UHGV virus genome: UHGV-0209291
DNA: 8,042 nucleotides
Reading direction: 5' to 3' (one strand)
Source of the DNA: a virus
A program made the translations under genes and the position numbers. Within the stretch, counting starts at the first letter, position 1, and the number at the start of each line of letters is the position of its first letter. The notes under the pieces are model-generated. The model made no database searches, was not told where the DNA came from, and saw only the letters and a program-made list of their open reading frames with translations. Below, piece by piece: positions 1 through 8,042 of the stretch.

Positions 1-26
1 ATTGAAGGAATGAACCTAACATACAA

Positions 27-245
27 TCAACTCCCTTTATTAAGAATCTGGAACAGGATAGCCAGGCAGATAAACCCAAGCGCAAATGGTATCAGGAACG
101 GGGGAAGTTCATTGATGACACGCACCAGAAAACCAAACCCTTTTACAATAAGTTCCACCAGGCCAAGAAGCATCTGGAATAGGTCAATGACAAAATCAAC
201 AACCGTCTTAAAGATATTGGCAATGGATTCAAAGAACTTAAACAT
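27..245 (-). CDS. Small hydrophobic membrane protein (72 aa), candidate pVI-like minor virion protein.
   Basis: ATG at 245 directly abuts the TAA stop of the upstream 430-aa gene (TAAATG). A strong G-rich SD (AAGGGGGGTGGG) lies 3 nt upstream. The protein is almost entirely hydrophobic (two or more TM segments). Its position after a pIII-like gene mirrors gIII-gVI order. Confidence 0.55.
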   Translation of the reverse strand: MFKFFESIANIFKTVVDFVIDLFQMLLGLVELIVKGFGFLVRVINELPPFLIPFALGFICLAILFQILNKGS

Positions 246-1538
246 TTACCCACCCCCCTTTAAACGGTACAGACCAACGGCGCAGGAAGCGAGAGAGAGG
301 ATAAGGCATACATTTATGACCACCTGGAACCCACCGGAACGTTCATAAATACCTTGCAGGAAATCGGAAACAGTTGATATGACGGATAATGTACTGTCAA
401 AACTGAAATCAAAATCTATGTTCCCAATCCCTGTATTAACATCCTCCATTAGATTATCTTCGGCCTGGTCATATTCCGTAAGTGAACCATTCAATCGGTC
501 ATTATCGGAATTCATACCAGAATTATCATAGCCATTCGATAACTTATCCGTATTCGCATTGTTATTGTTAATGATGTTAGTGGTATTGGATTCCTCAGCA
601 GCTATGATATCATCCGTGTTATCCCTATCAGCCTGTAACTGTTCGGAATGTTGCTGGGTCATCTTGTTATAAAGATTCGTAAATTCACCTGCAAGCTGGT
701 TCCAAAAGGCTGTAAGCTGGCTTGATATTGTCTGTATCGTATTTTTAATGAGTTCAATGATAGTATCACCCTGTTCCACCTGCTGGGCCGTATTATTAGA
801 AATACTCTGGTTAATGTCCTGGTCAACATTGCCGGAATCAGGGGAACCCCCCTGTACAGGCGCATCACCGGAAAGACGGGTAAAGTTAATGCTGACATAA
901 CCGCCCCAAGGAGGGGTACCCGTATCCGATTTTAAAAAGTTAGAAATATTAAACTGACTTGTAGACGCACCAATTGAAACATCAGCCGAAAGGCTGAAAT
1001 CACCAGAAGAATACGTTCCATCAACAAAAATCTGAGAACCCTGTTCACTTACATTACTATACTTAACACCGAACCAAAAAGTAGTAAAATCATATGAAAT
1101 AAAAGTATTACTACCAAAATGAACAGACACCTTATATTTACCAGCAGGAGGAAGGGCGCGCTTACGCAAAACAAAACCGAACCAATAAGGTGATGCATAA
1201 TCAGACGGCCTAGCAATAGAAGCGTATCCATTATCATTTACCTGCGAAAAACTATGCTGGATACGTCCAGACATATCATAATAAGCAAGACACATCTGTA
1301 CACCAGAATAATCGACTGAATTGGATACAGTATCATCACCAGACGACATAAGGGCAGGGGCTTCCAAAGTATCAAAATCACCTGATTCCAAAAAATCATC
1401 TGAAGGCATTGCATTACTAGATATGGCAATATTTAATTGGGCATTAGAGGATGTAGCAATTTCAGACGCGAACGAACCAAAAGCACAAGTCAATGATATG
1501 AGAGATACTAAAATGATTGTTATGATACGCTTAGACAT
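246..1538 (-). CDS. Secreted, C-terminally membrane-anchored protein (430 aa), candidate pIII-like adsorption/minor coat protein.
   Basis: N-terminal signal peptide (MSKRIITIILVSLISLTCAFGSFASE). S/T/N/D/G-rich beta-like N-terminal half, then a Q/N-rich helical region. C-terminal hydrophobic anchor (VVINVCLILSLASCAVGLY-RLK). SD-like AGGGGGTGT lies 9 nt upstream of the ATG. Large ORF, no competing frame. Confidence 0.6.
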   Translation of the reverse strand: MSKRIITIILVSLISLTCAFGSFASEIATSSNAQLNIAISSNAMPSDDFLESGDFDTLEAPALMSSGDDTVSNSVDYSGVQMCLAYYDMSGRIQHSFSQVNDNGYASIARPSDYASPYWFGFVLRKRALPPAGKYKVSVHFGSNTFISYDFTTFWFGVKYSNVSEQGSQIFVDGTYSSGDFSLSADVSIGASTSQFNISNFLKSDTGTPPWGGYVSINFTRLSGDAPVQGGSPDSGNVDQDINQSISNNTAQQVEQGDTIIELIKNTIQTISSQLTAFWNQLAGEFTNLYNKMTQQHSEQLQADRDNTDDIIAAEESNTTNIINNNNANTDKLSNGYDNSGMNSDNDRLNGSLTEYDQAEDNLMEDVNTGIGNIDFDFSFDSTLSVISTVSDFLQGIYERSGGFQVVINVCLILSLASCAVGLYRLKGGG

Positions 1539-1666
1539 AAAAAAAATACACCCCCTAACAAATTGTTAAAAGATGTACTAAACAATACTTAATTTGTAAC
1601 TAACTATTCGTTAAACTAGACTATTATGAATAGTTACTTTATTTTATTAAGTGGATAGTACATCTG
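1539..1666 (-). promoter_or_regulatory. AT-rich intergenic region upstream of the 430-aa gene; putative promoter/operator with inverted repeat TAACTATTC (1601-1609) / GAATAGTTA (1628-1636) and one AACTAACTA copy (1598-1606).
   Basis: 128-bp AT-rich gap between minus-strand genes. The inverted repeat and an AACTAACTA motif are shared with other upstream regions (2344-2352, 2817-2875). No clean -35/-10 could be assigned. Confidence 0.3.
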
Positions 1667-1888
1667 TTATGACAAAGAAGAATCCGAAAGAGCATCAGCA
1701 ACCTTATCATGAACTGATTTCAAAACCTTGATTTCAGATTCCGCAATGCTGAAACGCTCTGACGTGTTTATATCATCAAGGGAACGAATACGGCGTATCC
1801 TGGCGCAACGTTCCAATAATTCATCCAGACGGACGTTTACTACCCGGTTAAGGTATCGTAATTCACGTTCCGTAAGTTCAATTTTCAT
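1667..1888 (-). CDS. Hypothetical small soluble helical protein (73 aa), possibly a regulator.
   Basis: Intact ORF with charged/helical composition (ELTERELRYLNRVVNVRLDELLERCARIRR). Only a weak SD (GTGGTTGG). Sits between the gV-like and pIII-like genes. Confidence 0.45.
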   Translation of the reverse strand: MKIELTERELRYLNRVVNVRLDELLERCARIRRIRSLDDINTSERFSIAESEIKVLKSVHDKVADALSDSSLS

Positions 1889-2014
1889 CCAACCACTACT
1901 TTCTTATAATCTGTAACACATTTCCCATATCCGCGACACCGTAGGTGCATCCGGGACATGATGAACCGCGACCGCCAGGAACCTGGCACCAATCAGCAAT
2001 CAAGGGGAAGGAGT

Positions 2015-2048
2015 ATCCCCGGCCCCTAGATAATACCTGGGGCCGGGG
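2015..2048. repeat. GC-rich stem-loop with an 11-bp perfect stem, TCCCCGGCCCC (2015-2025) / GGGGCCGGGGA (2038-2048), and a 12-nt loop. It lies in a GC-rich structured non-coding segment (about 1900-2060) downstream of the gV-like gene.
   Basis: Direct reading of the sequence. No T-run follows on either strand, so it is not a canonical intrinsic terminator. The stem core ATCCCCGGC is shared with the 4262-4284 hairpin. Confidence 0.55.
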
Positions 2049-2061
2049 AATAGTGCATACG

Positions 2062-2322
2062 CTAGTTAGGTGAATCAACTATCTGGACAGCATCAACAAA
2101 ACCCCTGCGGTCAAAATTAAAATCCACATAGTCCTCAGGATGGATACCGGAGATATCCGGCGCATACTGACCATTCCAGACATCCACATTCTCCACCCTG
2201 ACACCACGGACCTTATCCGGCTGACGGGAAGGAACAGAATAAAAACGGGTAAAATCATAAGGCTTACCTGTCTTTTTAGAAACGCCTTCGAACCTCTCAA
2301 TACCTAAAACATGATATACCAT
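2062..2322 (-). CDS. gV-like ssDNA-binding protein (86 aa) of filamentous phage.
   Basis: Length matches M13 gVp (87 aa). Motifs GVSKKTGKPY (compare M13 GVSRQGKPY) and GQYAP (compare M13 GQPAYAP). SD GTGAGGA upstream. Recognised by eye from memory of gVp, not by search. Confidence 0.7.
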   Translation of the reverse strand: MVYHVLGIERFEGVSKKTGKPYDFTRFYSVPSRQPDKVRGVRVENVDVWNGQYAPDISGIHPEDYVDFNFDRRGFVDAVQIVDSPN

Positions 2323-2406
2323 AACTAATCCTCACTTTCTTTAAACTAACTAATTGGTTATATTATAGACCAGGGCAGGGCCACGGAGGGATACCCTGGG
2401 GGCAAC

Positions 2407-2586
2407 CTAAACAGGCGGAATATCGTCTGAATCCTCATTTATGTAAGACAAGATGGCTTCAAGACGGGAAAAATGATACTGTAATACATCAACACGGCAC
2501 TGGTCATGCAACGCCATGGCACGACAGATTGCCACGCTGGTTTCATTTTGTTCCTGCTCTAAGAGAGCCTTGGAAAGTCTACGCAT
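2407..2586 (-). CDS. Hypothetical 59-aa protein (MRRLSKALLEQEQNETSVAICRAMALHDQC...), below the ORF-track cutoff.
   Basis: ATG at 2586 is preceded by AGGAGGGG at 7-nt spacing. It overlaps the 3' end of the 79-aa ORF in another frame by 28 nt. Confidence 0.4.
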   Translation of the reverse strand: MRRLSKALLEQEQNETSVAICRAMALHDQCRVDVLQYHFSRLEAILSYINEDSDDIPPV

Positions 2587-2798
2587 TCGGGACCCCTCCT
2601 GTTAGTTTTATAAGCGTGAGCAACAACACCACGCAAAGCATCGCGCTCCTCAGAAGTAATTGCATCAATGGTACATGCAAAACTCAGTTGTGAACAAATC
2701 CAAGTATAATCAAACATCAAATCAATAACATCATCACCACGAAGATAAACTTCCACAGCATCATTGATTGTCTTACGGATACGCTTTTCATCCATCAT
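2559..2798 (-). CDS. Hypothetical 79-aa protein; first gene transcribed divergently from the XRE cassette.
   Basis: Tandem ATG ATG with TAAGGAGGAT SD at 8-nt spacing. Acidic/helical N-terminus. No recognisable domain. Confidence 0.55.
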   Translation of the reverse strand: MMDEKRIRKTINDAVEVYLRGDDVIDLMFDYTWICSQLSFACTIDAITSEERDALRGVVAHAYKTNRRGPECVDFPRLS

Positions 2799-2816
2799 AT
2801 TAAATCCTCCTTATGC

Positions 2817-2875
2817 ACTAACTAAATCATTCTTGTGAACTAACTAAATTTGTGATAAAATAGATACTAACTAAG
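2817..2875. repeat. Three direct copies of ACTAACTAA(A/G) at 2817, 2839 and 2866 (spacing 22 and 27 bp), each partly flanked by TTGTGA, in the divergent intergenic region. Candidate operator array.
   Basis: Read directly. The region sits between the minus-strand 79-aa gene and the plus-strand XRE regulator gene, like a lambda OR-type switch region. Related AACTAACTA copies occur at 1598-1606 and 2344-2352 upstream of other minus-strand genes. Confidence 0.5.
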
Positions 2876-2882
2876 CGCTTAA

Positions 2883-2912
2883 TTGTTACTTATCTTATAC
2901 TAAGATTATACT
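2883..2912 (+). promoter_or_regulatory. Putative sigma70-type promoter for the XRE cassette: TTGTTA (2883-2888), 18 nt spacer, TATACT (2907-2912).
   Basis: Hexamers read from the sequence, with a 50-nt leader to ATG 2962. The duplicated CAATATTTTGGAG at 2914-2926 and 2943-2955 lies in the leader. Prediction only. Confidence 0.35.
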
Positions 2913-2961
2913 ACAATATTTTGGAGCAGTCAATAGTTAAATCAATATTTTGGAGTAGATT

Positions 2962-3303
2962 ATGGAAAATTATGTATCTAAACTTTTTAGAATAATGGAA
3001 GAAAAAGGAATAACAGCTTATCAAATAAGCAAAGGAACAGGAATAGGTCAAACAACATTATCAAGTTGGAAAACCGGAACCAAACCAGCAATGGATAAAT
3101 TTGTGTTAGTACTACAATATATTGGCATATCATCAGATGAATTATTTGGCCTAAGAGAACCAGAATACACCCCCAAAGAAAAAGAAATCATATCCAAATA
3201 CAGGAAATATGATGTACATCAAAAAGAATTATTAGAAGCTTATATGGACTTACTCGGAGGAGAAAAGCATCATGACACGGAAGATGCAAGATTATACGGT
3301 TAA
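2962..3303 (+). CDS. XRE-family (Cro/C1-type) helix-turn-helix transcriptional regulator, 113 aa; candidate phage repressor/immunity regulator.
   Basis: Classic HTH_XRE signature ITAYQISKGTGIGQTTLSSWKTGTKP. GGAG SD 7 nt upstream. AT-rich codon usage unlike the backbone. Confidence 0.85.
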   Translation: MENYVSKLFRIMEEKGITAYQISKGTGIGQTTLSSWKTGTKPAMDKFVLVLQYIGISSDELFGLREPEYTPKEKEIISKYRKYDVHQKELLEAYMDLLGGEKHHDTEDARLYG

Positions 3304-3354
3304 ACGACTACATCAATACTAAAAATAAATAGTCAACCCAAACGAGGAAAATGT

Positions 3355-3981
3355 ATGTATCAGACCTATATAACACTAATACTAATTATAATTCTACTTT
3401 ACATTATCATTAAACTAATCAAAGAAAAAAATAAAGACAATGACACAAACATAAGAAGAATTGAAGAACTAAAAGAAAAAGAACTAACAAAAGAAGATAA
3501 CAACATCAATAAAAATCAATATAAAAAGAAATATTTTCTAACAAACACAGAAAAACAATTTTTATCAATATTATACGAACTAAAAAAATATAATTTAATT
3601 ATTATACCCCAAATAAATTTAGCTACAATTATACAAAAAACAGGAGAATTTCGGTATCAAAATGAATTATATCGAAATATTGATTTCGGAATATTCGATA
3701 AAAATTATAATATTCTACTTTTAATTGAATTAAATGATATATCACATCAACAATACAAACGGCGAGAAAGAGACATGAAAGTAAAAGAAATCGTCAAACA
3801 AGCCGACATAAAACTTATCAATTTTTATACAGACAAACCTAATAAACCAGAATACGTAATAAAAAGAATCATGAATGAACTTGCGATATCTATACCGAAT
3901 TACGAAATAAATCAAATTGAACAAGATAAAAAAGACGAACAACCATCCATAACTCACCAGAATGAACAAGAATCGATTTAA
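3355..3981 (+). CDS. Membrane-anchored protein (208 aa) with a DUF2726 / Vsr-DUF559-like (PD-(D/E)xK restriction-endonuclease-like fold) domain.
   Basis: N-terminal TM (ITLILIIILLYIIIKLI). Domain signature NIDFGIFDKNYNILLLIELNDISHQQYKRRERDMKVKEIVKQADIKLINF matches the hhDFhhhD...hhhhE(L/V)D(D/G)xSH...R..RD...L...GI.hhR(F) pattern of the DUF2726/DUF559 families. GAGGA SD at 6-nt spacing. About 25% GC. Confidence 0.7.
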   Translation: MYQTYITLILIIILLYIIIKLIKEKNKDNDTNIRRIEELKEKELTKEDNNINKNQYKKKYFLTNTEKQFLSILYELKKYNLIIIPQINLATIIQKTGEFRYQNELYRNIDFGIFDKNYNILLLIELNDISHQQYKRRERDMKVKEIVKQADIKLINFYTDKPNKPEYVIKRIMNELAISIPNYEINQIEQDKKDEQPSITHQNEQESI

Positions 3982-4008
3982 GGGAATTTTAAGGAGGATA
4001 TAACCTAA

Positions 4009-4254
4009 ATGAATGAAAATGAAATGCTAGAAGCCATCAGAGGAATGCTACAAGAAGAACTTAAACCAATCCATGATAGCATAGAAACTCTAAAAGTACA
4101 AAACAAGGCTATAAAAAACAAATTAGAAGAAATAGACATAAGACTAACCAACCTAGAATACCAGACAAAGAAGGGAACCAAAGAAACCAGACAAGACATA
4201 GAAACATTAGTAGAAGTCCTAGAAGCAAAAGGCATATTACCAAAAGCACTATAA
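4009..4254 (+). CDS. Small coiled-coil protein (81 aa), function unknown.
   Basis: Perfect SD AAGGAGGA 8 nt upstream. Heptad-like, charged sequence (LEAIRGMLQEELKPIHDSIETLKVQNKAIKNKLEEIDIRLTNLEYQ). Immediately followed by a terminator hairpin. Confidence 0.75.
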   Translation: MNENEMLEAIRGMLQEELKPIHDSIETLKVQNKAIKNKLEEIDIRLTNLEYQTKKGTKETRQDIETLVEVLEAKGILPKAL

Positions 4255-4261
4255 CAGCAAA

Positions 4262-4290
4262 ATCCCCGGCTCTATGCCGGGGATATCTTT
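4262..4290. terminator. Bidirectional rho-independent terminator: 9-bp GC-rich stem ATCCCCGGC / GCCGGGGAT with 5-nt loop TCTAT. Followed by ATCTTTATCT on the plus strand and TTTTGCTGTT on the minus strand.
   Basis: Read directly. It ends the plus-strand cassette (stop at 4254) and likely also the minus-strand rep transcript. Confidence 0.6.
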
Positions 4291-4296
4291 ATCTAT

Positions 4297-4359
4297 GTAA
4301 CACATTTTCACCTGCAGGTGATTTCTGGCCTGGCCGGAGCCGGCATGACCATGTGTTAC
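4297..4359. repeat. Compound inverted repeat: outer 9-bp stem GTAACACAT (4297-4305) / ATGTGTTAC (4351-4359) enclosing the perfect 12-bp palindrome CACCTGCAGGTG (4309-4320) and GGCCGG-AG-CCGGC (4332-4344). Candidate packaging signal or single-strand origin of the intergenic region.
   Basis: Read directly. It sits immediately downstream of the rep operon, where inovirus intergenic regions carry packaging/origin hairpins. Confidence 0.45.
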
Positions 4360-4538
4360 TAATCATCATCAATTACCCCACGCTTGACGGCATCAGCCAG
4401 GCCAATTGATACTAACCGGGTAGCCAGTTCCGCAGGAGTGGCATAACATTCACAGTATTCCATGTAACGGCAGAGTTGGTTATACTGCTTCTTTGTAAGG
4501 TATGTACTAACTTTGATTTTTCCAATCGGCTTATTCAT
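4359..4538 (-). CDS. Hypothetical 59-aa Cys-rich protein (MNKPIGKIKVSTYLTKKQYNQLCRYMEYCECYATPAELATRLVSIGLADAVKRGVIDDD), below the ORF-track cutoff.
   Basis: ATG at 4538 overlaps the rep stop (ATGAATAA). AAGGGAAA lies upstream. A C-x5-C-x1-C pattern hints at metal binding. The stop overlaps the right arm of the compound inverted repeat. Weak support. Confidence 0.35.
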   Translation of the reverse strand: MNKPIGKIKVSTYLTKKQYNQLCRYMEYCECYATPAELATRLVSIGLADAVKRGVIDDD

Positions 4539-5547
4539 AAAAGTTTCCCTTCTGATATCTTAATAACTGATTCCGTAACTTGTTAAATATGGAACCCTCA
4601 ACTTCAAAGGGACGTTCCAGGAGCAGCGCCTTGTATCTACGTTTCGTAGGAGCCGACATCTGCCGGAGATAATAGTCCATCTTGTCAACAGGTTGTTCCG
4701 CAAGCAACTGCACAATAACCTTTGTCTCTGCAAGGTCAATCACTTTACGAGTATAGACATTGGGCCAACATCTACAGCAATCACTGTAATCCAGGCTGTC
4801 CAACGTGACCTCAATCCGAGTAAGTGGATAATCAAGTTCTGCCTCAATCTGTTTATTATATACCTTGACACGGCCTGGACTGGACATAGAACCTAAGTAT
4901 TCAGTAAAATCCTGGGCTGATTTATAAAACTGGCTGTATTTCCGGTTATCCTTGATAAGCTGCACACAATCACGACCGTACGGCACATCAACCGCCAAAT
5001 CCCATCTCTTGATTTTTATAGATTCCACACTTACAAAAAGCTGGTCCAATACTTCTCCCAGAATGTCGCCTATCTGGTCCCGTAAATCACGGAAGGAGAT
5101 TTCCTCCTGGGTAAAAGGGGATATTGTGGTACGAAGAAAGCCATCACCATAAGCAACTTCACCCAGCAGCTTATTAGGGTTGAAATCCAGGAAACCCCGT
5201 AAGACAGTTTCTTTCTTTACACCATTCATACAACAGCCAATACTGAATGACATCCCTTTCATCCCAAACACATATAAATACCGATAGTCAAAATCCTTGT
5301 AAGATGTATAGGACGTGGAGCCAGGCAGGTGGGAGAGGAGAGAAAGAAAGGATTCCACTGTATCAATATTGGGAAACTCGAAGGAGTAACGGAGGGAATC
5401 ACAGGAGTAGAAAACACCATCCTCAATGAGTGGATTGAAGTAGTAAAGCATGGGCAGGACCTCCAAAAAGATTGTTAAGTAACTATACAAAGTGAAAGAA
5501 TTTTTCAGGACTTCGGACCTAATTAGACGGAGGTCCGAAGTCATCAT
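4531..5547 (-). CDS. Rolling-circle replication initiator, Rep_trans (pT181 RepC/RepD-like) family, 338 aa.
   Basis: Motifs RWDLAVDV and VKVYNKQIE (candidate catalytic Tyr) resemble Rep_trans conserved blocks as I recall them. GAGGA SD 9 nt upstream of the ATG ATG start. Its position next to the Zot-like gene and structured intergenic region fits an inovirus gII equivalent. Confidence 0.7.
   Translation of the reverse strand: MMTSDLRLIRSEVLKNSFTLYSYLTIFLEVLPMLYYFNPLIEDGVFYSCDSLRYSFEFPNIDTVESFLSLLSHLPGSTSYTSYKDFDYRYLYVFGMKGMSFSIGCCMNGVKKETVLRGFLDFNPNKLLGEVAYGDGFLRTTISPFTQEEISFRDLRDQIGDILGEVLDQLFVSVESIKIKRWDLAVDVPYGRDCVQLIKDNRKYSQFYKSAQDFTEYLGSMSSPGRVKVYNKQIEAELDYPLTRIEVTLDSLDYSDCCRCWPNVYTRKVIDLAETKVIVQLLAEQPVDKMDYYLRQMSAPTKRRYKALLLERPFEVEGSIFNKLRNQLLRYQKGNFYE
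5508..5542. promoter_or_regulatory. Perfect 12-bp hairpin GACTTCGGACCT / AGGTCCGAAGTC with 10-nt loop (plus strand AATTAGACGG, gene-sense strand CCGTCTAATT) at the Zot-stop/Rep-start junction. Candidate double-strand origin or translational-coupling element.
   Basis: Read directly. The hairpin covers Rep codons 3-13, and the Zot stop codon (5519-5521) lies in the stem. The loop on the gene-sense (viral) strand contains TCTAAT, reminiscent of the pT181-family nick site ...ACTCT/AATAG..., which lies inside the 5' end of repC. Confidence 0.4.
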
Positions 5548-6283
5548 CCGTTTTATCCTCTATCGCTTCAACTACGGGCCCGCCACAGGCGGGGGCCCTT
5601 CGTTTCCGCTTGATGAATGGTGTGTATGTAAATTGACCTTCTGGAAGATAGGGAGGGTCAAACGAATTAAAGTATTTTATATACTTTGGCAGATAAGTAA
5701 TACGGATGGAGCCGGCCCAGAACAGAAGCAGACTCTCAAAATGTATATCATCCACAAGTTTAGATTCACCAGCCTGGTTAGAATCTGCATGGGTAATCGT
5801 GGGAGACTTGGCAATACCCCTGGCAACTGAAAATGCATTAAAGACATTAGTCGCTAAATACATACGGTCCGTAAGGTCCCTAAGTTTCTTATCAACATCA
5901 AAACTCTGGGAAAATAGATAAACCGTATGACGGTATTTCCGTTGGAAACGGAAATAGTCAAAGGTCTTTTTCTGGAAATTCTTAAAATCACGGTTATCCC
6001 AATACCTGGAAGCCTCGTCAACCATAATGATTGCGTTTTCAGGAAAACCGACAGAACCCAACATTTCAGGCTCAAAGTAATATGTACCAGGAATGTCAGG
6101 AGCATTGCAGAACACAGGCCGTTTCCGCTTGTTATACTTCAAAGACAGTTTGACCATTAACGTGGTTTTACCAGAGCCCTTTTTACCTATGACCATGATT
6201 AATTTATAGGGATTGCGATAGCGGATTAAATGGTACCCAATGAAAAGAATAAGAAACAGGATAATCAAAACGAAAAACACCAT
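5519..6283 (-). CDS. Zot / filamentous-phage pI-like P-loop NTPase (assembly ATPase), 254 aa from the preferred start; N-terminal TM anchor.
   Basis: Walker A VIGKKGSGKTT. Walker B plus downstream IIMVDEASRYWDNR (compare V. cholerae Zot FLFIDECGRIWPPR). A YFRFQRKYRHTVYLFSQ block. AGGAGGA SD 8 nt upstream of ATG 6283. The ORF-track start 6331 lacks an SD. N-terminal TM VFFVLIILFLILFIGYHLI. Confidence 0.85.
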   Translation of the reverse strand: MVFFVLIILFLILFIGYHLIRYRNPYKLIMVIGKKGSGKTTLMVKLSLKYNKRKRPVFCNAPDIPGTYYFEPEMLGSVGFPENAIIMVDEASRYWDNRDFKNFQKKTFDYFRFQRKYRHTVYLFSQSFDVDKKLRDLTDRMYLATNVFNAFSVARGIAKSPTITHADSNQAGESKLVDDIHFESLLLFWAGSIRITYLPKYIKYFNSFDPPYLPEGQFTYTPFIKRKRRAPACGGPVVEAIEDKTDDDFGPPSN

Positions 6284-6423
6284 GAAAATATCCTCCTGAC
6301 AAAGCGGAATACACAAAGGACAACCAGACATAAAGCAATAGGCACAAAAATAGGACTATCTATATCAAAGGCCAGGAGAGGGGAGAAGAAGAAATCCCAA
6401 AAGACCGGAAGAATCCCAAACAT
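6265..6423 (-). CDS. Small membrane protein (52 aa, two hydrophobic segments) between the coat-like gene and the Zot-like gene; candidate minor virion/assembly protein.
   Basis: ATG at 6423 with GGAGGT SD at 6-nt spacing. The ORF track extends to a GTG at 6483 with no SD. Overlaps the Zot start by 19 nt. Confidence 0.45.
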   Translation of the reverse strand: MFGILPVFWDFFFSPLLAFDIDSPIFVPIALCLVVLCVFRFVRRIFSWCFSF

Positions 6424-6482
6424 AATATACCTCCAAATATCAGACCGGGCGAAACCCGGCCTGACAAAGAAACGATAAGTCA

Positions 6483-6773
6483 CTAAAAACTGCTATAGAT
6501 ACGGGAAAGGACACCAATCACAGCACCGACAAAGAAAACAGCCAGTGACAGAAGGATGATGGGCTTGTCAAGCATCCAGGCCAGCAGGTTACCACCTTCC
6601 TGGAGGAACCAGGCGAACACCTCCGTGAAGATACTGAGCGTATCCGTAAGGGAAGCAGAACCTGCACCAGATTCAGACGCATAGGCCGGAAAAGCTGTCA
6701 TACCCATAAGGAACGGTACGGCAAAAAGGCCATACATGAACTTCTGGAACCTATTTCTTACTCTCTGCAACAT
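6483..6773 (-). CDS. Coat-like protein precursor (96 aa) with a signal peptide and one TM; candidate major coat protein (pVIII-like).
   Basis: GGAGGTG SD at 7 nt. Positively charged n-region plus h-region ending AYA|SE. Mature part has an acidic/amphipathic N-terminus, a TM (PIILLSLAVFFVGAVIGVL) and a short C-tail with R. Confidence 0.55.
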   Translation of the reverse strand: MLQRVRNRFQKFMYGLFAVPFLMGMTAFPAYASESGAGSASLTDTLSIFTEVFAWFLQEGGNLLAWMLDKPIILLSLAVFFVGAVIGVLSRIYSSF

Positions 6774-6784
6774 AAAAACACCTC

Positions 6785-6949
6785 CTAAAATAAATTTTTA
6801 AAAAACTTTATTAACCTGCCAAGCAGGGGCAGGAGAATAACAACAGCACCTAAATAAATACCATCACCTAAAAGGAAATCAATCAGGACCTTGGCATTGA
6901 CCAGAATCCCATCATTAAAAATAGTCGAGAAATCTTCCCACATGGTCAT
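6785..6949 (-). CDS. Small coat-like protein (54 aa, MTMWEDFSTIFNDGILVNAKVLIDFLLGDGIYLGAVVILLPLLGRLIKFFKNLF), not in the ORF track.
   Basis: The start overlaps the upstream stop (TGATG). Acidic N-terminus, single TM, basic C-terminus (R, K, K). This is the Pf3-type major-coat architecture without a leader. Confidence 0.5.
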   Translation of the reverse strand: MTMWEDFSTIFNDGILVNAKVLIDFLLGDGIYLGAVVILLPLLGRLIKFFKNLF

Positions 6950-7095
6950 CAACCCCAACGCAAAATGATAAGTTTAAGCAGCTCACCGAAAAAGGAGAGG
7001 AGCCAGAGGAACAGGACAGCAGTAATGGCAATCAGAACGGGCTCAAACTGCACCGGGACCGTAATGCCTAATAACGTTTGTAATTGTTCAAACAT
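6949..7095 (-). CDS. Small coat-like protein (48 aa, MFEQLQTLLGITVPVQFEPVLIAITAVLFLWLLSFFGELLKLIILRWG), not in the ORF track.
   Basis: AGGGGGTGT lies 9 nt upstream of the ATG, the same element and spacing as upstream of the 430-aa gene. Overlaps the end of the 277-aa gene by 28 nt. Acidic N-terminus, TM, basic C-terminus. Confidence 0.45.
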   Translation of the reverse strand: MFEQLQTLLGITVPVQFEPVLIAITAVLFLWLLSFFGELLKLIILRWG

Positions 7096-7901
7096 ATGAA
7101 TAAAACACCCCCTGTCACAACAAACAACATGATATAATCCATGGTCTGGGATACGTAAAACGGATTATGGTATTTATTTACCGTAATCACACCATAGGAT
7201 GTGGAATAAGTAAGACGGCTGGAACTCCAATAATAAGTACGCATATAATTAGGACTGCCGTATTCATTCACCGTGGAAAAGTTATTGCCAAGACAGGGAG
7301 AGAGATACATCAGCTTACCCTCTGTCACCAAAGGATTAAATCCAGCATCCACGATACGGCCTGTAATATTACTGGTAGACATGTTCCAAAGACGGTCATT
7401 ACCATCTATATAAAGATTATCCACGTATTCCGGCGGAATCAGTAAAATATAATCATGGTTGTTAAAAGTAATATCAAAACGCAACACATTAACGTAAGTA
7501 TCCTCAGAGCCCTGCGCAAAGGAATCGGCATCCAGAGTGTAAGAAGCTGTATCAACCTCCTCACCGTCAGGAGAAATTTCCTCATCCTCCAAGGCATCAC
7601 TGTCAGGCCTGGTAGCATCTGAAGGAGTAGCAACAGGGCCACCCATAGAATCGCTAATAGATACAACTTCGGCAAGTATACGTTTAAGAACCTCATCATC
7701 GTTCATGTCCTCCATGGATTCATAATAAAAATCGGGCCGGTCATCAAAGGCTGAAGAAATATCATCATCATCCACAATTTCATCATCTTCCAAAACATCA
7801 TCATCTTCCAACACCTTTCCTACCTCAGAAGGAGACGCAACCGGAACAGCATAAGAAGGAAAGGAGAACAGAAGCATGAATACCATTATCAAAAGAACCA
7901 T
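7068..7901 (-). CDS. Secreted protein (277 aa from ATG 7901) with a poly-acidic segment and C-terminal TM anchor; second pIII-like / host-interaction candidate.
   Basis: GGAGAA SD 5 nt upstream of ATG 7901. The ORF-track TTG start at 7913 is less likely. Signal peptide ...FSFPSYA|VP. A D/E-rich run (VLEDDDVLEDDEIVDDDD). Beta-rich Y/S/T/N C-half and terminal anchor IMLFVVTGGVLFICL-NNYKRY. Confidence 0.7.
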   Translation of the reverse strand: MVLLIMVFMLLFSFPSYAVPVASPSEVGKVLEDDDVLEDDEIVDDDDISSAFDDRPDFYYESMEDMNDDEVLKRILAEVVSISDSMGGPVATPSDATRPDSDALEDEEISPDGEEVDTASYTLDADSFAQGSEDTYVNVLRFDITFNNHDYILLIPPEYVDNLYIDGNDRLWNMSTSNITGRIVDAGFNPLVTEGKLMYLSPCLGNNFSTVNEYGSPNYMRTYYWSSSRLTYSTSYGVITVNKYHNPFYVSQTMDYIMLFVVTGGVLFICLNNYKRY

Positions 7902-7902
7902 A

Positions 7903-8042
7903 TCATTCTCCAAACTTTACAATCACAGTACGGGCAACAATCGTAACAATAAGGATGGCAACAAGGACATTCTCCAAGGTAAAACCGCCAAGTTCCGTAT
8001 ATTGAAGAAGCCCAATCATGCCACCGAATACATCAATAACAA
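7903..8042 (-). CDS. 3' end of an ORF entering from the right edge (...VIDVFGGMIGLLQYTELGGFTLENVLVAILIVTIVARTVIVKFGE*); C-terminal TM segment, partial.
   Basis: Open frame to the window edge. Its stop TGA (7903-7905) lies 1 nt from the next ATG (7901), which suggests operon coupling. No start is visible. Confidence 0.35.
   Translation of the reverse strand, partial: VIDVFGGMIGLLQYTELGGFTLENVLVAILIVTIVARTVIVKFGE

What the first reader, a model, noticed from the sequence alone, without database searches (positions are those of the whole stretch)
2800..4260. Compositionally foreign three-gene cassette (XRE regulator, TM-anchored DUF2726-like nuclease-fold protein, coiled-coil protein) on the opposite strand of a filamentous prophage
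The segment is far more AT-rich (about 25-30% GC by eye) than the 43-45% GC backbone. It is transcribed opposite to every phage gene. Upstream is a triple-repeat divergent operator-like region and downstream a GC-rich bidirectional terminator. Its position between the rep/intergenic region and the downstream phage genes is where inoviruses such as CTXphi (rstR) carry their variable immunity module. The cargo here is larger than a lone repressor. It may be a repressor-controlled superinfection-exclusion/defence or lysogeny-maintenance system, possibly undescribed as a unit.
Basis: partly seen in the sequence, partly recalled or inferred. Interest (0 to 1): 0.8.

Follow-up and report, generated by a model that had tools for sequence, protein, structure and literature searches.

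The report
Inovirus repressor operon carrying membrane nuclease
The AT-rich, opposite-strand block is the lysogeny (repressor) operon of a gut Enterocloster filamentous phage, and only its middle gene, a membrane-anchored nuclease-fold protein of unknown function, is optional cargo; the same kind of gene also turns up in Vibrio filamentous phages and in F-type conjugative plasmids.

Summary
Window 2800-4260 is 28% GC against 42% elsewhere and carries three + strand genes: an XRE regulator, a TM-anchored DUF2726 protein and an 81-aa coiled coil. It sits between a repeat-rich divergent control region and a bidirectional terminator. All phage genes are on the - strand.

The window is a complete 8042-nt circular inovirus of Enterocloster/Lachnospiraceae, a relative of phages published in 2023.

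It is not one foreign three-gene cassette. About 20 distinct relatives show that the basic unit is regulator plus coiled-coil gene.
- The regulator slot holds XRE alleles or unrelated omega-like RHH proteins, and each type has its own repeats at the main phage promoter.
- The coiled-coil gene is always present.
- DUF2726 is an optional insert between them, found in 5 of 15 informative Rep-sampled loci and with either regulator type.
- The ACTAACTAA triple repeat is shared by heteroimmune phages, so it is not the XRE operator.

DUF2726 has a Vsr/DUF559-like nuclease fold with invariant acidic and His residues, and is predicted to face the cytoplasm from an N-terminal anchor.

Most likely it is a lysogen-expressed, membrane-tethered nuclease that acts on DNA entering the cell, analogous to SNIPE. 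This is untested. I class it as a new variant of a known kind, of moderate interest.

The parts
2799..2961 (.). Divergent control region between the first phage-strand gene (p79, start at 2798) and the XRE gene; 25.8% GC.
   Evidence: The left half (up to about 2905) is nearly identical in relatives with a different regulator. The right half is regulator-specific.
2817..2874 (+). Three direct copies of ACTAACTAA (2817, 2839, 2866). They overlap a + strand promoter-like site, TTGTGA-17-TAAAAT with a TG extension (2833-2861).
   Evidence: (4 copies in the window, 0.09 expected). The repeats are conserved in RHH-type relatives L001, L017, L054 and L058, so they are not XRE-specific. They probably belong to the shared lysogeny-operon promoter or bind a conserved phage protein.
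2905..2933 (-). Near-consensus sigma-70-type promoter TTGACT-17-TATAAT (11 of 12), pointing into the phage genes.
   Evidence: The -35 hexamer (AGTCAA on the + strand) is kept in XRE-allele relatives, while the sequence on either side of it changes with the regulator.
2914..2955 (+). Two direct copies of CAATATTTTGGAG (2914-2926 and 2943-2955) flanking the -35 of the phage promoter; the proposed XRE operators.
   Evidence: They are kept (1 mismatch) in L054, whose XRE has the same HTH. They are replaced by AAGGTA...TACCTT in L058, whose XRE has a different HTH, and by ATCATGCACAATAG x3 or AAACATAGTACTATG x3 in RHH phages.
2962..3303 (+). XRE-family HTH protein, 113 aa; the proposed phage repressor and immunity determinant.
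   Evidence: HTH_3 32.2 bits; PHROG transcriptional repressor/regulator families. Alleles of 82% and 65% identity occur at the same position in relatives. The slot holds omega-like RHH proteins in other relatives.
3355..3981 (+). TM-anchored DUF2726 protein, 208 aa: TM at 4-22, a charged helix to about 42, a linker, a Vsr-like nuclease-fold domain at about 61-176, and an acidic tail. This is the optional cargo gene. The insert relative to empty-site relatives is about 3331-3990.
4009..4254 (+). 81-aa coiled-coil protein, a conserved member of the lysogeny operon; function unknown.
   Evidence: Present in every related module examined, in at least 3 allele types with 33-54% identity. It has an invariant C-terminus VEVLEAKGILPKA and a variable number of heptads. 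AF2 gives one helix, residues 3-73. Only 17 homologues were found in 5.8 billion proteins.
4262..4284 (.). Bidirectional intrinsic terminator ATCCCCGGC-5-GCCGGGGAT. It ends both the + strand operon and the - strand phage transcription unit of the circular genome.
   Evidence: found on both strands; 4 terminator-like sites in the region against 1.1 expected. The same hairpin is present in relatives.

Best explanation
The + strand block is the lysogeny operon of an 8-kb circular filamentous phage of Enterocloster/Lachnospiraceae.

(1) Architecture, shown by comparison. The basic operon is a repressor gene followed by a small coiled-coil gene. It is transcribed divergently from the single long phage transcription unit and ends at a shared bidirectional terminator.

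(2) Repressor, inferred from covariation. The XRE protein is the phage repressor and immunity determinant. It binds the two CAATATTTTGGAG repeats that bracket the -35 of the near-consensus phage promoter, so it shuts off the phage genes. Relatives with a different HTH or an RHH repressor carry different repeats at the same place, which would give heteroimmunity.

(3) Cargo gene: gene content is shown, function is inferred. DUF2726 is a separately mobile gene inserted between the repressor and the coiled-coil gene, so it would be co-transcribed with the repressor in lysogens. It is a single-pass membrane protein with N-out, C-in topology, whose cytoplasmic domain is a Vsr/DUF559-type PD-(D/E)xK nuclease with an intact catalytic signature.

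Most likely it cuts nucleic acid that appears at the inner face of the membrane: the naked ssDNA of a superinfecting filamentous phage, injected phage DNA, or conjugative or transforming DNA. Tethering would keep it away from the chromosome, and the resident phage's own ssDNA is coated by its RstB-like protein. This is the logic shown experimentally for SNIPE, an unrelated membrane-bound GIY-YIG nuclease.

Confidence by step: about 0.85 for the operon architecture and the optional status of DUF2726; about 0.7 for XRE as repressor acting on those repeats; about 0.35-0.4 for the exclusion or defence role of the nuclease.
For: Genome and host:
- The window end joins the window start seamlessly in integrated copies, with a 35-nt att overlap at 1601-1635.
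- A homologue is named as from Enterocloster clostridioformis, and related Rep genes occur in Clostridium porci.
- Relatives were shown to be secreted as filaments (PMC10061712).

Modularity. All four combinations of XRE or RHH with or without DUF2726 occur, and DUF2726 occurs with three coiled-coil allele types. The combinations are:
- XRE + DUF2726 + CC;
- XRE (82% or 65% identity) + CC;
- RHH + DUF2726 + CC;
- RHH + CC.
This rests.

Repressor:
- Operator and HTH covary.
- The promoter lies at 2933-2905, between the repeats.

DUF2726 protein:
- Pfam hit; conserved E...D...ExND..H..R..RD signature; confident model; Vsr/DUF559/I-Bth0305I fold matches.
- The N-terminal TM is present in 87 of 120 close homologues and 105 of 138 further cluster representatives.
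- K+R counts are 3.3 after the TM against 0.8 before it, which puts the nuclease domain in the cytoplasm.

Recurrence in mobile elements:
- A second, unrelated gut inovirus carries it right after rep (L013).
- The only three hits among 50,697 phage records are Vibrio Tubulavirales, all TM + DUF2726. In two of them it lies in the accessory locus next to the regulator, and in one beside PD-T7-4/DUF4145.
- One homologue lies beside AbiEii and RelB/YafQ. Another is on an element with serine recombinases and IS1595.
- 152 of 174 plasmid hits are conjugative plasmids. In the four IncFII plasmids inspected, it lies between traI and traX and also has an N-terminal TM.

Precedents:
- Accessory hotspot next to a regulator in filamentous prophages, enriched for defence genes (PMC11630473).
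- Membrane tethering as self/non-self discrimination for a nuclease (SNIPE preprint 10.1101/2025.11.03.685801).
Against: - No experiment on any DUF2726 protein was found. Only eight papers mention the family, and none addresses function.
- There is no match to any PADLOC defence model.
- Some family members sit in stable chromosomal neighbourhoods (mnmA ... xerD-like, rarA, holA) with no obvious mobile element. This fits a housekeeping role as well as a defence role.
- The DUF2726-positive phage is found in tandem with a heteroimmune sibling that lacks DUF2726, in both orders (L001 and L004). Exclusion of close relatives is therefore at best incomplete.
- Nuclease activity, substrate, topology and expression in lysogens are all predictions.
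- Promoter and operator assignments rest on consensus scans and comparison, not on binding data.
Confidence: 0.45

Rival explanations
1. DUF2726 serves the element's own DNA traffic at the membrane. It would process, trim or nick the phage's (or plasmid's) ssDNA during extrusion, entry or conversion to the replicative form, acting as an efficiency factor rather than a weapon.
For: The same TM + DUF2726 architecture is carried by inoviruses of Firmicutes and Vibrio, and by IncFII plasmids inside the tra operon between the relaxase traI and traX. All of these elements pass ssDNA through the membrane. Vsr-type enzymes are nickases (established knowledge; fold match).
Against: The gene is absent from about two thirds of otherwise near-identical phages that are evidently viable and widespread. 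It sits in the repressor-side operon, not in the replication or assembly unit. It also occurs in chromosomes with no such element nearby.
Confidence: 0.15
2. It is a selfish, free-standing homing-endonuclease-like gene. The nuclease cuts the empty regulator/coiled-coil junction of co-resident relatives and is copied in by repair. That would explain its presence or absence at one site across many allelic backgrounds.
Against: The N-terminal membrane anchor is conserved in most of the family, which would hinder access to a target on a replicon. No DNA-binding or specificity domain is present, only the approximately 115-residue core. The family occupies unrelated sites in other elements and chromosomes. 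The N-terminal third of the protein itself is swapped between phages.
Confidence: 0.1
3. It is a toxin-antitoxin or addiction pair: DUF2726 is a toxic nuclease and the XRE protein its antitoxin or controller. This would stabilise the prophage or episome, as PfiAT does in Pf4 or as a C-protein-controlled restriction gene would.
For: An XRE gene lies 51 nt upstream on the same strand. Inoviruses often carry TA modules (PMC6813254, PMC12328805, found). In two related chromosomal contexts a 255-aa HTH protein also lies upstream.
Against: DUF2726 occurs with an unrelated RHH regulator, and after rep with no regulator. It also occurs between traI and traX, and apparently alone in chromosomes. The XRE alleles occur without DUF2726, and their repeats lie at the phage promoter. 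No methyltransferase or other protective gene is present in the 8-kb genome.
Confidence: 0.1
4. DUF2726 is a non-catalytic membrane protein that blocks a receptor or entry channel, giving superinfection exclusion of the PfsE type, or it is a decaying passenger with no function.
For: It has a membrane anchor and lies in the lysogeny operon. One low-coverage relative has a disrupted copy (L043), and truncated variants exist (P0029, P0035).
Against: The acidic, His and Arg residues of the nuclease core are invariant across 56 homologues of 36-79% identity. The exact 208-aa sequence is listed in 307 blocks of the collection, which is not the pattern of decay.
Confidence: 0.05

Closest known systems
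Inovirus of Enterocloster clostridioformis 2_1_49FAA ('455'), genes 17-19 (Burckhardt et al. 2023, PMC10061712, Table S5). This is our locus L017.
   Same: Same phage clade: Rep 82%, flanking genes 73-78% identical. The same DUF2726 gene (85% identity over residues 40-208) lies between a divergent regulator and the same coiled-coil gene (95%), with the same terminator. Virion secretion was shown for that phage.
   Different: Its regulator is an omega-like RHH protein with different operator repeats. The N-terminal TM/linker of its DUF2726 protein is diverged. The paper lists DUF2726 as 'unknown, transmembrane' and the coiled coil as a structural (tail-needle-like) protein. It treats all three genes as strain-unique, without noting that the coiled coil is conserved in the other Enterocloster inoviruses.
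CTXphi rstR / ig-2 immunity region of Vibrio cholerae (established knowledge; NCBIfam NF041951)
   Same: A small HTH repressor is transcribed divergently from the phage replication genes. It has allelic, heteroimmune variants with matching operators. The prophages are tandem and the phage encodes no integrase.
   Different: Sequence membership is not met (20.8 bits against an 80-bit cutoff). Here the repressor heads an operon with one or two further genes, and the slot can also be filled by an unrelated RHH fold.
Accessory-gene hotspot of filamentous Vibrio prophages (Steensen et al. 2024, PMC11630473)
   Same: A variable locus beside a transcriptional regulator in genomes under 16 kb, enriched in defence-type genes. 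Two of those phages carry a TM + DUF2726 gene in that locus (PQ189324, PQ189337).
   Different: Different phage lineage and host phylum. DUF2726 was not singled out there.
SNIPE (Saxton et al. 2025 preprint, 10.1101/2025.11.03.685801)
   Same: A single N-terminal TM with N-out, C-in topology, a helical stalk and a C-terminal cytoplasmic nuclease. The N-terminal region is highly variable and two-TM variants exist. Tethering keeps the nuclease off the nucleoid while it cuts DNA entering the cell.
   Different: There is no homology. SNIPE has DUF4041 plus a GIY-YIG nuclease and is about 2-3 times longer; here the domain is a Vsr-like PD-(D/E)xK core with no DUF4041. Activity and phenotype are unknown here.
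Vsr / DUF559 / I-Bth0305I endonuclease fold (PDB 1cw0, 3hrl, 3r3p; PD-(D/E)xK group 58 of Steczkiewicz et al. 2012, PMC3424549)
   Different: Only 15-18% identity. It has a membrane anchor, no mismatch-recognition or DNA-binding extension, and an unknown substrate.
Pf phage lysogeny-side accessory functions (PfsE exclusion peptide PMC8764522; PfiAT PMC12328805; KKP PMC11341870)
   Same: Filamentous prophages express small accessory modules that control superinfection, polylysogeny or defence.
   Different: Unrelated proteins and mechanisms: pilus inhibition, a ParE-type toxin, and a kinase/phosphatase module.

Membership tests
Pfam DUF2726 (PF10881) | Score above the curated gathering threshold | tested here: met
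   44.3 bits against 24.7, residues 59-172 on profile positions 2-123 of 126.
Vsr-like PD-(D/E)xK nucleases (Vsr/DUF559/DUF2726 group) | Restriction-endonuclease-like alpha/beta core | tested here: met
Vsr-like PD-(D/E)xK nucleases (Vsr/DUF559/DUF2726 group) | Conserved catalytic acidic/His residues | tested here: met
   E66, E125, D128, H131, R136, R139 and D140 are invariant, and D110 is present in at least 90% of 56 homologues. Mapping onto the Vsr active site was not done residue by residue.
Vsr-like PD-(D/E)xK nucleases (Vsr/DUF559/DUF2726 group) | Nuclease activity | not testable with these tools
   No biochemical data were found for any DUF2726 protein.
XRE / Cro-C1 HTH regulators (PF01381) | HTH_3 domain above threshold | tested here: met
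   32.2 bits against 23; PHROG repressor/regulator families at 1e-10 to 1e-7.
RstR family repressors (NCBIfam NF041951) | Score above the curated cutoff | tested here: not met
   20.8 bits against 80, E 3e-4, although the alignment is full length. The analogy is positional, not family membership.
SNIPE defence system | N-terminal membrane anchor with a cytoplasmic C-terminal nuclease | tested here: met
   Hydrophobic segment at 4-22, positive charges after it, and two-TM variants with basic N-termini. This is a prediction only.
SNIPE defence system | DUF4041 domain and GIY-YIG nuclease | tested here: not met
   No such Pfam hits at E <= 1. The fold is Vsr-like. Not a member.
Known anti-phage defence systems (PADLOC-DB v2) | Match to any system component model | tested here: not met
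   No hit for DUF2726. Only noise hits (E >= 2.6e-4) for XRE and the coiled coil.
Type II toxin-antitoxin pair | Toxin always accompanied by its cognate antitoxin gene | tested here: not met
   DUF2726 is found with XRE, with RHH, after rep, between traI and traX, and alone. XRE is found without DUF2726.
C-protein-controlled restriction-modification | Cognate methyltransferase | tested here: not met
   No methyltransferase domain or ORF of suitable size in the 8042-nt genome.
Free-standing homing endonuclease gene | Presence/absence polymorphism at one intergenic site among close relatives | tested here: met
Free-standing homing endonuclease gene | Site-specific cleavage of the empty allele; DNA-recognition domain | tested here: inconclusive
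   No DNA-binding domain was detected beyond the core, and a TM anchor is present. Cleavage cannot be tested here.
Inovirus (Tubulavirales) | pI/Zot-type assembly ATPase plus a small circular genome with short coat-like ORFs | tested here: met
   Zot 28.5 bits against 20.3, phrog_197 and phrog_25712. The unit is an 8042-nt circle. Filament secretion was shown for relatives (PMC10061712), not for this genome.

The most novel reading that the evidence does not exclude
TM-DUF2726 proteins form a large, unrecognised family of single-gene, membrane-tethered Vsr-like nucleases: about 7,200 clusters at 50% identity, roughly three quarters of the sampled members with an N-terminal anchor. They would guard the inner face of the membrane against incoming DNA. 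They are spread preferentially by elements that themselves cross the membrane as ssDNA, namely filamentous phages of Firmicutes and Vibrio and F-type conjugative plasmids, where the gene lies between traI and traX. In those elements they would act as DNA-level entry exclusion against competitors. This would be a second, independently evolved case of the SNIPE principle of self/non-self discrimination by location.
Probability: 0.25. Interest if true: 0.75.

Novelty: new variant of a known kind. Interest (0 to 1): 0.5.

Why it matters
Filamentous phages of gut commensals were first characterised only in 2023, and their regulation is unexplored. This analysis gives a testable map of the switch in the Enterocloster group:
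- one promoter/operator region and one bidirectional terminator;
- at least five interchangeable repressor types, each with matching repeats;
- a conserved coiled-coil partner gene.

It also identifies the one truly optional gene. That gene belongs to a very large, uncharacterised nuclease family whose membrane anchor and carriage by inoviruses and conjugative plasmids suggest a simple, general way of excluding incoming DNA. If that holds, it adds a new single-gene defence or exclusion family and a Gram-positive, gut-relevant example of prophage-mediated protection. If it does not, the gene is still a clean marker of recombination in the inovirus immunity region.

Tried and rejected
- Megablast of the whole window against 50,697 phage records gave no match.
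- A sequence search of PDB with the DUF2726 profile gave only noise, E 0.16.
- Rfam at E <= 1 on the whole window gave nothing.
- PADLOC gave nothing for DUF2726. NCBIfam gave nothing for DUF2726, Rep, p59, p79 or p73.
- The IMG/VR scan with the DUF2726 alignment returned a single confirmed locus, because the derived peptide patterns were narrow. The species-representative genome scan with Rep gave only 3 loci.
- The ACTAACTAA triple repeat as the XRE operator was rejected, because it is identical in RHH phages.
- The three genes as one imported unit was rejected by the combination matrix.
- A shared C-terminal domain between the XRE protein and the 119-aa RHH regulator of L036 (both end in RLYG) is not significant (BLASTP E 2.0).
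- The coiled coil as an inhibitor or partner specific to DUF2726 was rejected, because it is present in all phages that lack DUF2726.
- The published 'tail needle gp26-like structural protein' label for the coiled coil was treated as a generic coiled-coil match, because Pfam gives only sub-threshold coiled-coil hits.
- Antisense ORFs inside the block (for example 3742-3969 and 4005-4235 on the - strand) were regarded as artefacts of the T-rich complementary strand.
Full report
**1. What is in the sequence**

The sliding GC profile drops from 38-52% to 19-34% between about 2700 and 4200. No equally long window elsewhere is below 38.1%.

Three + strand ORFs with good ribosome-binding sites fill the block:
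- 2962-3303: 113 aa, HTH_3 at 32.2 bits.
- 3355-3981: 208 aa, DUF2726 at 44.3 bits, with a hydrophobic N-terminus.
- 4009-4254: 81 aa, modelled as one long helix.

Every other ORF that recurs in related prophages is on the - strand. These include a Zot/pI ATPase, a putative Rep and an RstB-like ssDNA-binding protein.

ACTAACTAA occurs three times within 58 nt upstream, where 0.09 copies are expected in the whole window. A 9-bp GC-rich hairpin at 4262-4284 scores as a terminator on both strands.

**2. What the window is**

In integrated copies, window 1601-8042 is followed directly by window 1-1635. The window is thus one complete 8042-nt circular genome, cut arbitrarily, with a 35-nt attachment core at 1601-1635.

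The exact DUF2726 protein is listed in 307 blocks of the collection, in contigs of up to more than 1 Mb. A fragment is annotated from Enterocloster clostridioformis, and a 99% copy as 'Inoviridae sp.'. Related Rep genes occur in Clostridium porci.

Burckhardt et al. 2023 (PMC10061712) described inoviruses of E. bolteae and E. clostridioformis and showed that they are secreted. Their strain-455 phage is our locus L017. Their Table S5 already lists, as 'unique' genes, an 81-aa coiled coil, a DUF2726 protein with a TM segment (function unknown) and an omega-like RHH repressor. The window's own XRE, DUF2726 N-terminus and Rep sequences are not in that paper. The window has no megablast match in GenBank phages.

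**3. The block is modular, not a unit**

Loci came from four routes: exact-protein look-ups, a Rep-based metagenome scan, the IMG/VR locus and XRE homologues. I classified 23 distinct versions of the region between the flanking genes p59 and p79.
- All versions have a + strand regulator next to the control region and a coiled-coil gene next to the terminator.
- The regulator is the window XRE; XRE alleles of 82% or 65% identity; two omega-like RHH types; or a 119-aa RHH-like protein.
- The coiled coil comes in at least three allele groups (33-54% identity). All have an invariant C-terminus VEVLEAKGILPKA, and the number of heptads varies.
- DUF2726 is present in 8 of the 23 versions, always between the two other genes.
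- DUF2726 occurs with XRE or RHH upstream and with any of the coiled-coil groups downstream.
- Both XRE and RHH phages exist without it.

In the least biased sample, the Rep scan, 5 of 15 informative loci carry it.

An empty-site comparison (L058 against the window) places the insert at about 3331-3990.

Regulator plus coiled coil are AT-rich even where DUF2726 is absent: 35.8% against 42-44%. Low GC is therefore a standing property of this operon, with DUF2726 (23.9%) the extreme.

**4. Control region**

The left part, including the three ACTAACTAA copies and a + strand promoter-like site (TTGTGA-17-TAAAAT with a TG extension), is almost identical in phages with different regulators.

The right part holds a near-consensus - strand promoter, TTGACT-17-TATAAT (2933-2905), aimed at the phage genes. 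Its -35 is bracketed by two CAATATTTTGGAG repeats. These repeats track the regulator:
- They are retained where the HTH is the same (L054).
- They are replaced by an AAGGTA/TACCTT inverted pair where the HTH differs but the C-terminal half of the protein is identical (L058).
- They are replaced by three ATCATGCACAATAG or three AAACATAGTACTATG copies in the RHH phages.

This covariation is the main argument that the XRE protein is the phage repressor and that the alleles define immunity groups, as rstR does in CTXphi. The best NCBIfam match is in fact the RstR family, but far below its cutoff (20.8 against 80 bits). This is an analogy, not membership.

Because the genome is circular, the - strand promoter and the - strand face of the terminator delimit one long phage transcription unit. 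The + strand operon occupies the rest.

**5. The cargo protein**

An alignment of 56 homologues (36-79% identical to the window protein) leaves E66, E125, D128, H131, R136, R139 and D140 invariant. D110 is conserved in at least 90% of them. The motif reads D...ELND.SH...R..RD.

The anchor is a family trait:
- 87 of 120 close homologues and 105 of 138 further 50%-cluster representatives have one or more N-terminal TM segments.
- Single-TM members carry on average 3.3 Lys/Arg after the TM and 0.8 before it.
- Several two-TM members read by eye begin with a basic N-terminus.

All of this puts the nuclease domain in the cytoplasm. The family is large: 7,218 clusters at E <= 1e-3.

**6. Where else the gene is found**

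- Right after rep in an unrelated gut inovirus (Zot + REP_ORF2-G2P).
- In INPHARED, only three records match, and all three are Vibrio Tubulavirales (Vaf1, PQ189324, PQ189337). All have the TM + DUF2726 layout.
- In the last two, the gene lies in the accessory locus next to the divergent regulator. In one it is adjacent to a DUF4145/PD-T7-4 gene.
- Beside AbiEii and RelB/YafQ.
- On an element with serine recombinases and IS1595.
- In 174 plasmids, 152 of them conjugative. In the four IncFII plasmids inspected, a 188-aa TM + DUF2726 gene lies between traI and traX.
- In apparently stable chromosomal neighbourhoods.

No paper assigns a function, and PADLOC has no model for it.

**7. Interpretation**

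The architecture and the optional status of DUF2726 are shown by comparison. The repressor/operator assignment is a strong inference.

For DUF2726, three features point to a lysogen-expressed accessory function directed at other DNA. It sits in the repressor-side operon. It is carried by several kinds of mobile element. It has defence-type neighbours.

A conserved catalytic core, tethered to the inner face of the membrane, suggests it acts on nucleic acid as it enters. This is the mechanism demonstrated for SNIPE. SNIPE is a non-homologous N-out/C-in membrane nuclease that becomes toxic when untethered and cuts phage DNA during injection (10.1101/2025.11.03.685801).

Vibrio filamentous prophages are already known to carry a defence-enriched variable locus beside a regulator (PMC11630473). 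I put this reading at about 0.35-0.4.

Several points count against it:
- There are no functional data.
- Some family members are chromosomal copies with no mobile element nearby.
- DUF2726-positive and DUF2726-negative sibling prophages occur in tandem in both orders.

The rivals are a role in the element's own ssDNA traffic, a homing-endonuclease-like selfish gene, a toxin-antitoxin or controller pair, and a non-catalytic or decaying passenger. Each is weighed in its own section.

**8. Verdict**

The finding is real and well delimited. Its headline is only partly right.
- It is the resident lysogeny operon of a known group of gut inoviruses. The XRE repressor allele was not among the 2023 phages, and there is one optional, horizontally mobile gene.
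- That gene had already been seen and labelled 'unknown'.
- New here are the modular dissection and the operator/repressor covariation.
- Also new is the observation that membrane-anchored DUF2726 genes recur in filamentous phages of two phyla and in F-type tra operons.

I class it as a new variant of a known kind, with moderate interest (0.5). The upside depends on an easily testable nuclease-exclusion hypothesis.

Noticed in passing
window 1-8042; att core 1601-1635: The window is a whole circular inovirus genome. A 53-aa ORF runs across the window ends (7903-8042 plus 1-22). The 35-nt core TAACTATTCGTTAAACTAGACTATTATGAATAGTT, with inverted ends AACTATTC/GAATAGTT, is where integrated copies open. 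The phage encodes no integrase, which suggests host Xer-type recombination. This was not tested.
   Followed up: partly
L001 326-16323; L004 8248-20627: There are tandem arrays of two heteroimmune sibling inoviruses, XRE + DUF2726 type and RHH type, in both relative orders and at two different host loci. This resembles CTXphi/RS1-like polylysogeny.
   Followed up: partly
window 4297-4359 (and 4255-4365 as a whole): On the virion (-) strand, the region just beyond the terminator folds as DNA into a branched hairpin. MFE is -26.6 kcal/mol and z is -5.98, with 0 of 200 shuffles as stable. It is a candidate packaging signal or complementary-strand origin. Relatives have other genes inserted next to it.
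   Followed up: partly
window 1900-2060: This is the most GC-rich stretch of the genome (up to 52%). It has a strong hairpin at about 2015-2050 (CCCCGGCCCC.../...GGGGCCGGGG) between the RstB-like gene and p73. The overall fold z is -2.3.
   Followed up: partly
window 2345-2353: A fourth exact ACTAACTAA lies in the intergenic gap upstream of the RstB-like gene. The motif may be the site of a conserved phage protein, such as the RHH-like p59 or p79, rather than of the XRE repressor.
   Followed up: no
L058 6001-6339 vs window 2962-3303: The 65%-identical XRE allele has a different HTH half and a different operator, but its C-terminal half (PEYTPKEKEIISKYR...EDARLYG) is near-identical to the window's over the last ~48 residues (2 substitutions). 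This indicates recombination inside the repressor gene. A 119-aa RHH regulator (L036) also ends in RLYG, but the similarity is not significant.
   Followed up: partly
window 4009-4254; alignment A3: Coiled-coil alleles differ by whole NLDNRxS heptads (63-105 aa). They keep the N-terminal M(T/N)(D/E)xE(I/M)LEA and an invariant C-terminal VEVLEAKGILPKA, which looks like a docking peptide on a variable-length stalk. Only 17 homologues were found in 5.8 billion proteins.
   Followed up: partly
L001 2616-2816; L030 1975-2337; L033 6283-7417; L058 6817-7149: There is a second variable slot on the phage strand between p59 (RHH-like) and the terminator. It is empty in the window and holds a 66-aa membrane protein or a 110-120-aa protein (plus extras) in relatives.
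   Followed up: no
whole window: AT skew is positive on the + strand almost everywhere, including the opposite-strand block (A is 44-52% of its coding strand). The packaged strand therefore stays T-rich whatever the gene orientation. This suggests the block has long been resident in ssDNA phages.
   Followed up: no
L061 4827-5393; L062, L063, L064: IncFII conjugative plasmids of Salmonella, E. coli and Serratia carry a 188-aa TM + DUF2726 gene between traI and traX. In three of the four inspected it is followed, after traX, by a phospholipase-D-family (Nuc-like) gene.
   Followed up: partly
L014 6001-6525; L023 6169-7552: The chromosomal DUF2726 copy in L014 has an in-frame TGA, so the host probably uses genetic code 4. 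In L014 and L023 the gene follows a conserved 255-aa protein with an N-terminal HTH, near mnmA, a xerD-like gene, rarA and holA.
   Followed up: no
L002 2012-8164: A third, unrelated inovirus (Rep_trans Rep, Zot, gp8-like coat) lies next to the window-type prophage. It carries an RHH regulator 58% identical to the RHH of the sibling phages, so regulators are exchanged between inovirus lineages.
   Followed up: no
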